Below, piece after piece: positions 3-6,100 of a stretch of 64,000 nucleotides of DNA. Source of the DNA: Bacilli bacterium (GTDB lineage Bacteria > Bacillota_I > Bacilli_A > RF39 > UBA660). The notes below the pieces were generated by a model, which did not search any database, was not told where the DNA came from, and was given only the letters and a program-made list of their open reading frames with translations. Made by a program: the position numbers and the translations under genes. How positions within the stretch are numbered: the first letter of the stretch is position 1; each line of letters opens with the position of its first letter. The DNA lies in NCBI GenBank assembly GCA_017428495.1, contig JAFRQS010000023.1:670-64669 (forward strand), written 5' to 3'.

Positions 3-1757
3 AATGGAGGAGTATGTATTCCTTCATCAGTAGAAGTGTTACCACAAAAAACATATCAGATGAAAGCTGTACCAATACCAGCAGATGCAGATGATAAAGA
101 AGTAACATGGTCTAGTAGTGATACAAGTGTTGCTACTGTTGATTCAAATGGTAAAATAACTGCAAAAGCAGAGGGTGAAGCAACAATAACTGCTAAGATA
201 GGTGAAGTTAGTGCAACATGTACATTAAAAGTAAGTAAGCAAGTTATAACTTGTGCACCAGGTGAATATTTACCAAAATCAAAAGATAAATGTGAGAAAT
301 GTTTAGTTGGTAGTGAATGTTCTGGAGGATCATATCCAATAAGTGATGCAACAGATCAAGGAATAAAGATGTGCCCAGCAGGAACATATGCTGATAAAGA
401 GGGTATGGTAAGTTGTACACCATGTCCAGCTGGTACAACAAGCCCAGCAGGTTCTAAATCAGCTTCTGATTGTAAAGCATCAAATGAACCAACACCAGCA
501 CCTTCTCCATCAACAAGTTATAAATGCTATCAATGTGGTGGAAGTCAAGGAGTAAGATATTATTGGGCTTCACAATCTCCAGACACTTCTAATTGTGGTG
601 TTGCTACAGTTGTATTAGATCCAGCAACAGGAAGTCAAGTGGCAGCAAATTCTAATAACTGTAATGGAACATCAACATCTAAAATGAGAGAATATTGTGA
701 AAATAAAAACATGAAATATTTAACATGTCCATCAGGTCAAGAAGTAGATAAGAAAGATTCATATGGATGTGTAACATGTAAGAATGCTTCTACAGGATAC
801 AAGTGTTATGCTTGTGGTGGAAGTCAAGGCGTAAATTATTATTGGACTGATAAAGCTCCAAGTACTAATTGTGCTATAGCTACATCAGTACAAGATCCAT
901 CAACAGGAAATTCAGTTGGTGCAAATGCAGGAAATTGTAATGGTTCATCAACGTCTAAGTCAAGACAATATTGTGAAAGTAGAGGAATGTATTATTTGAC
1001 ATGTCCATCTGGTAGAACTCAAACTGGAACAGAAGGTCATGGTTGTGTAACATGTAAATTAAATTCAACACCAAAATGTCCACAAAGACAATATTATACT
1101 GGAGTTTCATGTCAGAATTGTCCAGCAAATATGTATTGCCCAGGTGATGATAAATCATATGCATGCCCAGCACATTCTCAGGCTAGAGGTTCTGCAGGTC
1201 AAAAAATAGATTGTTTATGTGATGATGGTTATAAAATGGTAGCAGGTAAATGTGAACCAAATGGGGCGTCAAATTTAATATGTGCAGCTGGCCAATATAA
1301 ATCAGGTGATAAATGTGTATCATGTCCATCAGGTTATACTTCAAATAAAGGAGCAACAAGTATAAGTTATTGTTATATAAATGTTGCTGCAGGTCATGCA
1401 GTTGTTAGAGCTGGTGGTGGCCAAGTATCATGTGGAGCTGGAACATATAAAGGAGCACACACAGTATATTATAATCAAACAAGTTCATGTAATAAGTGCC
1501 CAGCAGGAACATATTCAAGTTCAGGAGCTAGTGTATGCCCATCATGTAGAAAAGGAACATATTCAACAGGTGGCGCAGCAAGTTGTACAAGTTGCCCATC
1601 AGGATATACAACTTCAGGAACAGGTGCAACATCTAGTTCACAATGTGTTAGAGCAACAGTACCAAATTGTAAGGATGCTTGTGTTCAATCTTTCTCAGGC
1701 GCAACATATGATGGTACTTATGATCCAAAGACAAATACATGTTTGTGTTGGGGTTAG
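3..1757 (+). CDS. 5'-partial Cys-rich secreted/surface protein: Big_2-like Ig domain, ephrin-receptor-like/GCC2-GCC3-type CxxCPxG repeats and two 93-aa 8-Cys repeats
   Basis: Frame 3 is open from the window edge (NGGVCIPSSVEVLPQ...). VTWSSSDTSVATVDSNGKITAKAEGEATITA is a typical Big_2 signature. Many CxxCPAGTY motifs; 49 Cys counted in the 573-aa ORF. Confidence 0.8.
   Translation, partial: NGGVCIPSSVEVLPQKTYQMKAVPIPADADDKEVTWSSSDTSVATVDSNGKITAKAEGEATITAKIGEVSATCTLKVSKQVITCAPGEYLPKSKDKCEKCLVGSECSGGSYPISDATDQGIKMCPAGTYADKEGMVSCTPCPAGTTSPAGSKSASDCKASNEPTPAPSPSTSYKCYQCGGSQGVRYYWASQSPDTSNCGVATVVLDPATGSQVAANSNNCNGTSTSKMREYCENKNMKYLTCPSGQEVDKKDSYGCVTCKNASTGYKCYACGGSQGVNYYWTDKAPSTNCAIATSVQDPSTGNSVGANAGNCNGSSTSKSRQYCESRGMYYLTCPSGRTQTGTEGHGCVTCKLNSTPKCPQRQYYTGVSCQNCPANMYCPGDDKSYACPAHSQARGSAGQKIDCLCDDGYKMVAGKCEPNGASNLICAAGQYKSGDKCVSCPSGYTSNKGATSISYCYINVAAGHAVVRAGGGQVSCGAGTYKGAHTVYYNQTSSCNKCPAGTYSSSGASVCPSCRKGTYSTGGAASCTSCPSGYTTSGTGATSSSQCVRATVPNCKDACVQSFSGATYDGTYDPKTNTCLCWG
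516..1058 (+). repeat. Two tandem ~279-nt (93-aa) Cys-rich domain repeats
   Basis: YKCYxCGGSQGVxYYW...NC...DP.TG..V.AN..NCNG.STSK.R.YCE...M.YLTCPSG......GCVTCK occurs twice, starting near 516 and 795. Confidence 0.9.
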
Positions 1758-4585: not shown

Positions 4586-6100
4586 ATGAAAAAGTTTTTA
4601 ATAAGTGTAATGTTACTATTATTAGTTGTTACAGTACGTGCTGAAGAAAAAGTAAATTTAAAATTAGAGTGGATACCTAATATGTATTATAGTTATAAAA
4701 AGGATGGTATGACATATTGGGGTCAATTTGCATATGCCTATGTGGATGGTAAGATAGCATATTGTCTAGATATATACCATCCTATAACTAAGTATGAGTA
4801 TACATCGACAAGTGAAATTCAGGAAAATAATTTGGTTATATTAGCAGGATATTTTGGATATGGATATAATGGTGAATATTTACTAAAAGATTATGTCGCT
4901 ACACAAAAACTAATATGGGAATATTTGGGTATGAATGTAAAAATAACTGCTGAAAGTGAAGGAAAAGGTAGGGAAATAGATTTGTATGATAATACTTTAA
5001 AAATAATAGAAAGAATAAATAGATATGCACTATTTCCAAGATTTGATAGTGACTTTATATTTGATTTAAATACAACAAATCAGTTAAATGATTTAAATGA
5101 AATAAGTGATAATTTCGATATAATAAATGAGTCATATAATAATATATATTCTATAGATAATAATGTAATATTTGAAGCATATGAAGTTGGTACAAATGAT
5201 TTTTATTTAAAAACCAAATATGATATGAATCATTCTAATATTATATTTGTAGCACCAGATTCCCAAAAAATAATGATTATTGGTGAAGTAAATAACTTAA
5301 CACAAAGATATTCTTATGAGGTGGTTGATTCTGATGATGAAACTCCAATAATAGAAGAAAATCCAATAATAGAGGAAGACCCAGTAGTAGTGGAAGACCC
5401 AATAATAGAGGAAGACCCAGTAATAGAAGAAGACTCAGTAATAGAAGAAGACCCAATAATAGAGGAAGATCCAATAATAGAGGAAGACCCAGTAGTAGAA
5501 GAAGACCCAATAATAGAGGAAGATCCAATAATAGAGGAAGACCCAGTAGTAGAAGAAGACCCAATAATAGAAGAAGATCCAGTAATAGAAGAGGATCCAG
5601 TAATAGAAGAGGATCCAGTAATAGAAGAGGATCCAGTAATAGAAGAGGATCCAGTAGTAGAAGAATACCCGATAATAGAGGAAGATCCAATAATAGAGGA
5701 AGATCCAGTAATAGAGGAAGACCCAATAATAGAAGAAGATCCAATAATAGAAGAAGATCCAGTAATAGAAGAAGATCCAGTAATAGAAGAGGATCCAATA
5801 ATAGAAGAAGATCCAGTAATAGAAGAAGATCCAGTAATAGAAGAGGATCCAGTAATAGAAGAGGATCCAATAATAGAGGAAGATCCAGTAATAGAAGAAG
5901 ATCCAGTAATAGAAGAGGATCCAGTAATAGAGGAAGATCCAGTAATAAAGGAAGATCCAGTAATGGAAGAAGAGAGTGTAAATATTGAAAATAGTGTGAA
6001 AATTTCAGAAAAAATAGATAAGTTACCATTTTTAGGGGTATATTATGAAAAAAATCTTAATATTTGCATTTATTTTATTAAATTTAACTGGATGTACTAA
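4586..6100 (+). CDS. Cys-Gln thioester-domain (TED) surface adhesin with acidic repeat stalk and LPFLG sorting-like motif
   Basis: Signal peptide; AYCLD (Cys at 4763), ATQKLIW motif, candidate reactive Gln in DSQKIMIIG (5264); 35 EEDPVI-type repeats; C-terminal KLPFLG; adjacent sortase. Confidence 0.75.
   Translation: MKKFLISVMLLLLVVTVRAEEKVNLKLEWIPNMYYSYKKDGMTYWGQFAYAYVDGKIAYCLDIYHPITKYEYTSTSEIQENNLVILAGYFGYGYNGEYLLKDYVATQKLIWEYLGMNVKITAESEGKGREIDLYDNTLKIIERINRYALFPRFDSDFIFDLNTTNQLNDLNEISDNFDIINESYNNIYSIDNNVIFEAYEVGTNDFYLKTKYDMNHSNIIFVAPDSQKIMIIGEVNNLTQRYSYEVVDSDDETPIIEENPIIEEDPVVVEDPIIEEDPVIEEDSVIEEDPIIEEDPIIEEDPVVEEDPIIEEDPIIEEDPVVEEDPIIEEDPVIEEDPVIEEDPVIEEDPVIEEDPVVEEYPIIEEDPIIEEDPVIEEDPIIEEDPIIEEDPVIEEDPVIEEDPIIEEDPVIEEDPVIEEDPVIEEDPIIEEDPVIEEDPVIEEDPVIEEDPVIKEDPVMEEESVNIENSVKISEKIDKLPFLGVYYEKNLNICIYFIKFNWMY
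5336..5965 (+). repeat. Coding tandem repeat, 35 x 18 bp (EEDP[V/I][I/V])
   Basis: Units read directly, e.g. GAAGAGGATCCAGTAATA; 630 bp total from DETPII to KEDPVM. Confidence 0.97.

What the first reader, a model, noticed from the sequence alone, without database searches (positions are those of the whole stretch)
516..1058. Unrecognised 93-aa, 8-Cys tandem domain
Seen: two copies of YKCYxCGGSQGVxYYW...NC...DPxTG..V.AN..NCNG.STSK.R.YCE...M.YLTCPSG...GCVTC, with all 8 Cys and the aromatics conserved. They follow a Pro-rich linker (EPTPAPSPS). I do not recognise this as a named domain. Inference: an independently folding binding module inserted into the Cys-rich rod.
Basis: partly seen in the sequence, partly recalled or inferred. 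Interest (0 to 1): 0.65.

Follow-up and report, generated by a model that had tools for sequence, protein, structure and literature searches.

The report
Orphan eight-cysteine module in surface fibre
Two tandem copies of a real, unannotated 93-residue eight-cysteine module sit inside the cysteine-rich outer part of a giant membrane-anchored surface protein of an uncultured gut bacterium; it is known from a single species, and only its front third is related to a small repeat found in a few related bacteria.

Summary
Window 516-794 and 795-1070 encode two tandem copies (93 and 92 aa, 61% identical, E 3e-40), each with 8 Cys. They follow a PT-rich linker.

No Pfam, NCBIfam, PHROGs or PDB sequence match covers the module. 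Two moderate-confidence AlphaFold2 models (pLDDT 68 and 73) found no PDB fold match.

A profile search of 1.84 billion representative proteins found only two real relatives. Both are paralogs from another assembly of the same species. That assembly also gives the complete 1556-aa ortholog: N-terminal membrane anchor, a long Ig-like stalk, Big_2, Ephrin_rec_like cysteine repeats, PT linker, two modules, then more cysteine repeats.

The module is composite. Its first ~55 residues are an expanded copy of a rare 4-Cys "CYxCG...YxW...C...C" repeat of about 44 aa. In four other genera of the same bacterial family, that repeat occurs in T4SS-pilin-like proteins, a thioester adhesin stalk and a Big_2 protein. 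The last ~38 residues (helix plus hairpin) were found only in this species.

My reading is a self-contained, probably disulfide-stapled building block of a variable distal rod. A binding role is untested. It is a new but very narrowly distributed domain of modest interest.

The parts
3..1757 (+). C-terminal 584 aa of a giant surface protein. The ORF runs off the window and off contig C18. The complete ortholog, P0006, is 1556 aa, with an N-terminal TM anchor and an Ig-like stalk.
30..239 (+). Big_2 (bacterial Ig-like group 2) domain
   Evidence: Pfam PF02368, E 1.3e-16; coordinates
252..482 (+). Proximal Cys-rich repeats of the Ephrin_rec_like type (CxxCxxGxY units)
   Evidence: Pfam PF07699, E 2.5e-13, 3 stretches
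483..515 (+). Pro/Thr/Ser-rich linker NEPTPAPSPST
   Evidence: read directly from the sequence
516..794 (+). Module copy 1 (93 aa, 8 Cys)
795..1070 (+). Module copy 2 (92 aa, 8 Cys)
516..680 (+). N-half of copy 1: a 4-Cys 'CYxCGG...YYW...NC...C.G' unit homologous to the 44-aa repeat of T4SS-pilin-like and adhesin proteins. It carries a 10-11-residue insertion that includes the DPxTG turn (within about window 600-644).
   Evidence: reciprocal HMM E 4e-6; alignment A6
681..794 (+). C-half of copy 1: predicted helix (SKMREYCENK) followed by a beta-hairpin (CPSG...GCVTC), 4 Cys. Found only in paralogs of this species.
795..956 (+). N-half of copy 2 (CYxC-YxW unit)
   Evidence: reciprocal HMM E 4e-5
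957..1070 (+). C-half of copy 2
1071..1754 (+). Distal Cys-rich rod: an EGF-like stretch, further Ephrin_rec_like-type repeats, and the C-terminal tail ...CLCWG. No wall-sorting signal and no C-terminal TM.

Best explanation
The two copies are a genuine, previously unannotated extracellular module of about 93 aa and 8 Cys. It serves as a building block of the cysteine-rich distal part of a 1556-aa, N-terminally membrane-anchored, Ig-rich surface fibre in an uncultured small-genome Bacilli bacterium from the gut or rumen.

The module is composite:
- Residues 1-55 are an expanded member of a rare 4-Cys 'CYxCG...YxW...C...C.G' repeat, with a 10-11-residue insertion containing the DPxTG turn. Other members of the same bacterial family carry this repeat in tandem on surface proteins: at the N-terminus of T4SS-pilin-like proteins, and between a thioester domain and the membrane anchor of an adhesin.
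- Residues 56-93 are a helix plus beta-hairpin 4-Cys unit seen only in this species.

Inferred mechanism: each half closes on itself through two disulfides, giving a compact, protease-resistant bead. The beads add length and rigidity to the rod. They are gained, lost and duplicated as cassettes, so the distal region differs between paralogs, strains and species.

What is shown: the repeat, its boundaries, its distribution, its architecture, and the homology of the N-half. What is inferred: disulfide bonding, the spacer role, and the absence of a dedicated ligand.
For: Repeat reality: 61% identity, E 3e-40.

Distribution:
- Four aligned copies from three paralogs keep all 8 Cys at 41-61% identity.
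- Only 2 true hits appeared among 1.84e9 representative proteins, both from the same species.
- There was no hit in genome contigs, one identical contig in metagenome contigs, and none in plasmids or phages.

Architecture:
- The full architecture comes from the complete ortholog.
- The module is internal to the rod in all paralogs and appears in 1, 2 or dispersed copies.

N-half homology:
- An HMM built only from pilin-type repeats hits, among 13,169 six-frame ORFs of this genome, only this protein. The hits fall exactly at the start of each module (E 4e-6 and 4e-5); the next hit has E 1.5.
- Fifteen repeats from 5 genera share invariant C4, C7, Y15, W17, C27 and C49.
- Elsewhere the repeat occurs in tandem in surface proteins.

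Disulfide reading:
- Cys numbers are always even.
- Relatives in G012 and G601 gained an extra pair of Cys at positions 6 and 13. These flank the loop of the hairpin that AF2 predicts (E3-6/E15-18).

Predicted structure: the two AF2 runs give a broadly similar secondary structure.

Selection: among three strains the 555-nt module region shows 4 synonymous differences plus two conservative replacements, K490R and S541A.

Cassette behaviour:
- A same-genus ortholog keeps the stalk but has a different distal Cys-rich region.
- The allele of paralog P0002 in this genome has lost the N-half of the module and most of the rod.
Against: - There is no experimental or structural proof of disulfides.
- The 93%-complete genome has no detectable VKOR, DsbB, DSBA or Thioredoxin_4 homolog. 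The likely habitat is strongly reducing.
- AF2 confidence is only moderate (pLDDT 72.7, pTM 0.45, from 4 sequences). I could not read coordinates, so Cys pairing and the position of the termini are unknown.
- Conserved aromatics (Y2, Y5, Y15, W17, Y60, Y68) could form a ligand platform rather than a core.
- dN/dS of 0.51 between the two copies indicates only moderate constraint.
- The spacer role is an argument from context, not a test.
Confidence: 0.55

Rival explanations
1. One reading: the module is a ligand-binding (adhesive or receptor-recognition) domain displayed on the rod. The conserved Tyr/Trp cluster would form a binding face for a carbohydrate or for a partner-cell surface.
For: - Seven aromatic positions are conserved between the two copies, and five of them (Y2, Y5, Y15, W17, Y60) plus Y68 are invariant in all four copies.
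- A PT linker precedes the pair, as often happens before binding modules.
- The distal region varies between species and strains, as contact surfaces do.
- The same-genus ortholog carries a PT-HINT pretoxin domain. That suggests a cell-contact fibre, which would need a recognition part.
Against: - The module is never terminal. It is followed by about 230-300 aa of further rod in all paralogs.
- The homologous N-half repeat occurs elsewhere in tandem in stalk-like positions.
- There is no similarity to any CBM, lectin or adhesin-tip family.
- In a 93-aa, 8-Cys domain the aromatics are needed for the mini-core.
- The QCGG resemblance to fungal CBM1 is not conserved among copies.
Confidence: 0.25
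2. It is not a distinct domain. It would be a diverged stretch of the same Ephrin_rec_like / TNFR-like cysteine repeats that make up the rest of the rod.
For: - The module begins with C-x2-C-G-G...Y and ends with CPSG...GC-x2-C. These resemble the 17-aa CxxCxxGxY units of the rod.
- The top, non-significant Foldseek hits are TNFR CrmE, ErbB and HVEM.
Against: - Pfam PF07699 and the TNFR models do not touch the module, even at E<=1.
- hhalign of the module profile against a profile of 9 rod repeats gives probability 4% and aligns only 9 columns, the 'CPSG' stretch.
- The predicted 11-residue helix and the DPxTG hairpin have no counterpart in those repeats.
- The N-half has its own homologs in proteins that lack Ephrin-like repeats.
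Confidence: 0.08
3. The cysteines bind metal rather than forming disulfides. The CxxC at the N-terminus (C4, C7) and the CxxC at the C-terminus (C85, C88) would form a zinc-ribbon-like Cys4 site that clamps the module, which would suit a reducing gut habitat without Dsb enzymes.
For: - Two CxxC motifs lie at opposite ends of every copy.
- No VKOR, DsbB, DSBA or Thioredoxin_4 is detectable in the genome.
- Aerobic Firmicutes generally exclude Cys from exported proteins and lack an even-Cys bias (PMC2823432).
Against: - The 44-aa homologous repeat is self-contained with only one CxxC plus two single Cys.
- Relatives gained Cys as a pair across a predicted hairpin, which is the signature of a disulfide.
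- The surrounding Ephrin_rec_like repeats are disulfide modules wherever they have been studied (established knowledge of the family).
- C85 and C88 are predicted to lie inside a strand, not in a knuckle turn.
- No zinc-ribbon family was hit.
Confidence: 0.12

Closest known systems
Unnamed 44-aa 4-Cys 'CYxCG...YxW...C...C.G' repeat of T4SS-pilin-like proteins (e.g. Bacillales bacterium UBA5026, DICM01000038; P0007-P0009) and of a thioester-domain adhesin (G714)
   Same: - Invariant C4, C7, Y15, W17, C27 and C49, with Y5 nearly invariant.
- The same 'CGGSQG' loop as in the G601 and G012 copies.
- Extracellular location and tandem use.
- Reciprocal HMM hits at E 4e-6 and 4e-5.
   Different: - The window module has a 10-11-residue insertion (with the DPxTG turn) between C3 and C4.
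- It is fused to an extra 38-aa 4-Cys helix-hairpin unit that those repeats lack.
- This repeat family is itself absent from Pfam and NCBIfam.
Ephrin_rec_like / GCC2_GCC3 cysteine repeats (Pfam PF07699) and TNFR-type CRDs
   Same: - Small extracellular Cys-rich units with CxxC and 'CPxG' motifs.
- They flank the module in the same protein and likewise build a rod.
   Different: - No HMM match.
- hhalign probability 4%.
- No fold match.
- The module is 93 aa with a helix, against helix-free units of about 17-48 aa.
Stalk or spacer domains of bacterial fibrillar adhesins (Ig-like, Big_2, Bact_surface_Ig-like stalks)
   Same: - A repeated, self-contained module.
- It lies in the extended part of a cell-anchored surface protein.
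- Copy number varies between paralogs.
   Different: - Those stalk domains are beta-sandwiches that lack, or nearly lack, Cys.
- This module is a Cys-knotted mini-domain with no detectable relation to them.
Plakin/plectin repeat (PDB 2n03) and fungal CBM1
   Same: - A 'DPxTG' hairpin-like motif, as in the plectin repeat.
- A 'QCGG' motif in copy 1, as in CBM1.
   Different: - The plectin match has E 0.66 and 13.8 bits.
- CBM1 is not hit by Pfam, and the Q is not conserved.
- Both resemblances are treated as chance.

Membership tests
Ephrin_rec_like (PF07699) | Match of the Pfam HMM over the region at or above the gathering score | tested here: not met
   PF07699 matches the flanks only. Nothing falls on either repeat at E<=1.
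Ephrin_rec_like (PF07699) | Profile-profile similarity to the rod's own CxxCxxGxY repeats | tested here: not met
   hhalign of A2 against A4: probability 4%, 9 aligned columns.
TNFR / furin-like cysteine-rich domain fold | Structural superposition on a solved CRD | tested here: not met
CYxC-YxW 4-Cys repeat (unnamed; defined here) | C-x2-C, then Y-x-W 8-10 residues later, a third Cys 9-13 residues on, and a fourth Cys followed by x-G | tested here: met
   Both N-halves keep every invariant column of A6.
CYxC-YxW 4-Cys repeat (unnamed; defined here) | Significant reciprocal profile match | tested here: met
   An HMM from 7 pilin-type repeats hits only this ORF in the genome, at E 4e-6 and 4e-5. 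The genome search gives E 1.2e-7 and 1.4e-6. The match covers only HMM positions 2-28 in copy 1 because of the insertion.
CYxC-YxW 4-Cys repeat (unnamed; defined here) | Unit length of about 40-48 aa with 10-14 residues between Cys3 and Cys4 | tested here: not met
   The window type has 20-21 residues between C27 and C49. It is an expanded variant.
Zinc ribbon | Two CxxC knuckles at hairpin turns that coordinate Zn | not testable with these tools
   Two CxxC motifs are present, but no zinc-ribbon HMM is hit and C85/C88 are predicted to lie within a strand. Metal content cannot be computed.
Carbohydrate-binding module CBM1 | Pfam CBM_1 match and conserved QCGG plus three aromatics within 36 aa | tested here: not met
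   No Pfam hit. QCGG occurs in copy 1 only.
Plakin repeat | Significant sequence-profile match to a solved plakin repeat | tested here: not met
   E 0.66, 13.8 bits.

The most novel reading that the evidence does not exclude
The module (a CYxC-YxW unit plus a helix-hairpin unit) has a new disulfide-rich fold. It would serve as the exchangeable recognition cassette of a contact-dependent surface fibre, since relatives of this fibre end in a PT-HINT pretoxin domain. Its 8 cysteines, and the rod's 48, would be oxidised or metal-stabilised by an unknown extracytoplasmic pathway in a strictly anaerobic Bacilli lineage that lacks DsbA, DsbB and VKOR.
Probability: 0.12. Interest if true: 0.6.

Novelty: new variant of a known kind. 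Interest (0 to 1): 0.3.

Why it matters
If the reading is right, it adds two small entries to the catalogue of bacterial extracellular cysteine-rich modules:
- a family-restricted 4-Cys 'CYxC-YxW' repeat;
- a species-restricted 8-Cys elaboration of that repeat.

It also shows how the distal part of a giant surface fibre is assembled from cassettes that are duplicated, expanded and deleted between paralogs and strains.

The wider point concerns all the cysteine-dense exported proteins in this genome. A surface rod that is 9.6% Cys exists in an anaerobic Firmicute-type bacterium with no recognisable disulfide-forming enzymes. That contrasts with the cysteine exclusion described for exported proteins of aerobic Firmicutes (PMC2823432). 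It suggests either an unknown oxidative-folding route or metal stabilisation.

The module is known from one species only and has no functional handle, so its practical importance is modest at present.

Tried and rejected
Database and homology searches with no result:
- Pfam, NCBIfam and PHROGs on the repeats gave nothing. Ntox30 at 13-16 bits and two phrogs at E>0.02 are noise.
- Word-indexed search of 5.8e9 proteins with the repeat region of the window protein: none. With the P0002 region: only itself.
- HMMER of the two-copy profile against 1.84e9 representatives: 4 hits. Two of them (P0003, P0004) are spurious, boosted by repeats.
- Genome-contig scans: none, or only the UBA5026 contig itself. 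Metagenome contigs: one identical contig. Plasmids and phages by tblastn: none.
- Family, class and phylum genome samples found nothing outside the family. The family searches found, besides this genome, only G175 and then four other genomes.

Structure and profile comparisons:
- PDB profile search gave only a plectin repeat at E 0.66, rejected as chance.
- hhalign against the rod repeats: 4%.

Specific leads dropped:
- I suspected the G012 protein carried the whole module because of its 'TCPSGY' stretch. The C-half and full-module HMMs score only 4-5 bits there, so I claim only the N-half.
- The CBM1-like 'QCGG' idea was dropped because the Q is not conserved.

Not possible or unhelpful:
- The literature search on Ephrin_rec_like in bacteria returned nothing relevant.

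Full report
**Observation.** The window's first ORF (3..1757, +) is open at its 5' end. The window is G000:C18:670-64669, and the frame is still open at base 1 of contig C18. That leaves an 807-aa C-terminal fragment.

The two units are window 516-794 (93 aa) and 795-1070 (92 aa). They are 61% identical with one gap, E 3e-40, and each has 8 Cys in register. The linker NEPTPAPSPST lies at 483-515.

At DNA level the copies are 70% identical, with dS 0.65 and dN/dS 0.51. This is an old duplication under moderate constraint, not an assembly artefact. The only correction is that the second unit ends at 1070.

**The protein.** Pfam finds Big_2 (E 1.3e-16) and three Ephrin_rec_like stretches on the fragment, and nothing on the repeats.

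Another assembly of the same species, NCBI MAG GCA_017388165.1, is labelled 'Bacilli bacterium' and is 98.5% identical in nucleotides. It carries the complete ortholog P0006 (1556 aa) in the same gene order, followed by DUF421, TspO and a polysaccharide deacetylase. The architecture of P0006 is (NCBIfam OmpL47-type barrel):
- an Asn-rich N-terminus;
- one hydrophobic anchor helix (about aa 38-60);
- three Bact_surface_Ig-like domains, then further Ig-like domains;
- Big_2;
- Ephrin_rec_like repeats;
- the PT linker and the two modules (aa 1144-1328);
- about 228 aa more of cysteine-rich repeats.

There is no C-terminal sorting signal. The region from the first Ephrin-like repeat to the end is 9.6% Cys, 48 of 501 residues.

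**Distribution of the whole module.** A profile of the two copies, searched with HMMER against 1.84 billion representative proteins, gave four hits at E<=0.001.
- Two are spurious repeat proteins.
- P0002 (one copy) and P0005 (one full copy plus the tail of another at its truncated start) are real.
- Both real hits come from GCA_017388165.1, so they are paralogs in the same species.

The four aligned copies are 41-61% identical and keep all 8 Cys together with Y2, K3, Y5, G12, Y15, W17, T38, G39, N48, G51, Y60, Y68, P72, S73 and G84.

Other searches found nothing more:
- Word-indexed searches of 5.8 billion proteins: nothing else.
- One genome per GTDB species: nothing.
- JGI metagenome contigs: one identical contig.
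- Plasmids and phages: nothing.
- 201 genomes of the same family: nothing except a partial hit in G175.

**The module is composite.** The partial hit in G175 (Bacillales bacterium UBA5026) lies in a 313-aa protein. That protein has a signal peptide, two tandem 44-aa units of the form 'ACYxCGG...YxW...P...NC...C.G', and a C-terminal region with a weak T4SS_pilin match, below Pfam's cut-off. It has only three close relatives in the large protein database.

I tested the relationship in the reverse direction. An HMM built from seven of these pilin-type units alone was run with all filters off against 13,169 six-frame ORFs of the window's genome. It hits only the window protein, exactly at the start of each module (aa 396-422, E 4e-6; aa 490-526, E 4e-5). 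The next hit has E 1.5.

The same profile finds the unit in 5 of 401 genomes of the family:
- this genome;
- G175;
- G714, with three tandem copies between a thioester (TED) domain and a C-terminal membrane anchor;
- G601, with three copies at the N-terminus of a protein whose C-terminal hydrophobic region resembles that of the G175 pilin-like protein (no Pfam match), next to a second such protein;
- G012, with one copy after two Big_2 domains in a protein that has the same N-terminal anchor.

A broader 15-repeat profile found none in about 400 genomes sampled across the phylum. An earlier 6-row profile found none in a class-wide sample.

In the 15-repeat alignment C4, C7, Y15, W17, C27 and C49 are invariant. 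The window-type copies carry a 10-11-residue insertion that includes the DPxTG turn.

The C-terminal 38 residues (SK.R.YCE...M.Y..CPSG...GC..C) score only 4-8 bits on those other proteins. Elsewhere in this genome they occur only as a remnant at the end of contig C7.

**Structure.** AlphaFold2 gave pLDDT 67.7 with the two copies and 72.7 (pTM 0.45) with four copies. The secondary structure was broadly similar in both runs: hairpin 3-6/15-18, hairpin 32-34/41-43, helix 53-63 and hairpin 75-80/85-90.

**Is it a diverged rod repeat?** The module's ends resemble the rod's CxxCxxGxY units. However, hhalign between the module profile and a profile of nine rod repeats gives 4% probability over 9 columns, and PF07699 does not touch the module. 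I reject membership.

**Disulfides or metal?** Several points favour disulfides:
- Cys counts are always even: 8 per module and 4 per short repeat.
- The G012 and G601 repeats have gained exactly two more Cys, at positions 6 and 13. These flank the loop of the first predicted hairpin. Gain of Cys in pairs is the mark of disulfides.

Other points cut the other way:
- The 93%-complete genome has no match to VKOR, DsbB, DSBA or Thioredoxin_4, although the control genomes scored as expected.
- Each module has a CxxC at both ends.

A zinc-stabilised alternative therefore remains open, at about 0.12. Exported proteins of aerobic Firmicutes are reported to exclude cysteine (PMC2823432). The whole rod is unusual in that respect.

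**Variation.**
- Among three strains the 555-nt module region has four synonymous differences and two conservative replacements, K490R and S541A. The module is conserved within the species.
- A same-genus genome (G563) has an ortholog with the same anchor, Ig stalk, Big_2 and first Ephrin repeats, but an unrelated distal cysteine-rich region. That ortholog ends, at the contig edge, in a PT-HINT pretoxin domain (E 1.9e-16).
- The allele of P0002 in the window's genome (end of contig C7) lacks two internal segments, including the module's N-half, and changes frame.

The distal region therefore behaves as a set of cassettes.

**Interpretation.** The best-supported reading (0.55) is a self-contained, probably disulfide-stapled two-bead module. 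It lengthens and stiffens the distal rod of a membrane-anchored surface fibre. It arose by expansion of the family's 4-Cys repeat and fusion to a new 4-Cys unit.

The module's internal position in all paralogs, and the stalk-like use of its homologous repeat, weigh against it. The conserved aromatics, the PT linker and the contact-fibre context weigh for it.

**Limits.**
- The large-database searches were single-pass, not iterative.

**Verdict.** This is a real, unannotated and very narrowly distributed domain. It is a new variant within the known kind 'cysteine-rich extracellular repeat modules of bacterial surface fibres'. Interest 0.3.

Noticed in passing
L019 1926-7322 (G563:C18, same genus): The ortholog of the giant surface protein has the same N-terminal anchor, Ig stalk, Big_2 and Ephrin repeats. 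Its distal Cys-rich region is different, and it ends at the contig edge in a PT-HINT pretoxin domain (PF07591, E 1.9e-16). That makes it a polymorphic-toxin-type surface fibre. The window protein has no HINT domain.
   Followed up: partly
G000 contig C7 end (L004 4982-5414, minus strand), compared with L008 1-1636: The window genome's allele of paralog P0002 lacks two internal segments (L008 571-765 and 836-1552) and changes frame. Only the C-half of the module survives ('CENHGMYYKECPSNYT'). This is either strain-level cassette loss or pseudogenisation, or a MAG assembly artefact.
   Followed up: partly
whole genome G000: No match to VKOR (PF07884), DsbB (PF02600), DSBA (PF01323) or Thioredoxin_4 (PF13462) in a 93%-complete genome. 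The genome nevertheless encodes several cysteine-dense exported proteins, including the rod here (9.6% Cys), a 788-aa protein on C3, and the C6/C32 repeat protein.
   Followed up: partly
L006 1414-2355 (G175); L024 862-1752 and 1797-2873 (G601): Proteins with a T4SS-pilin-like C-terminal region (weak PF18895 match in G175 only) carry 2-3 tandem 44-aa 'CYxCG...YxW' 4-Cys repeats at the mature N-terminus. In G601 two such genes sit side by side, next to a large polytopic membrane protein. The repeat has no Pfam entry.
   Followed up: partly
L021 139-1713 (G714): A thioester-domain (TED) adhesin has a stalk of three CYxC-YxW repeats before a C-terminal membrane anchor, instead of an LPXTG signal.
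   Followed up: no
window 4586-6100: The neighbouring gene encodes a TED (thioester) domain protein with a long acidic 'EEDP[IV][IV]' repeat stalk (Pfam TED, E 8.8e-5). Another finding of this scan already covers it.
   Followed up: no
G000 contig ends C6, C20, C26, C27: Several near-identical type IV prepilin-like genes (KKAFTLVELLAVIVILAVI...) lie at contig ends. This suggests a repeated pilin family that breaks the assembly.
   Followed up: no
G000 C6:1-1070 and C32:31041-32163: A protein built from many copies of a roughly 22-aa two-Cys repeat ('VYSCEEGTLNGTKCIV...') is split across two contig ends.
   Followed up: no
L011 1-1889 and 2459-7129: In the sister assembly, a second module-bearing giant gene (P0005) lies directly upstream of the ortholog of the window protein. 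In the window's assembly that position lies beyond the contig start.
   Followed up: partly
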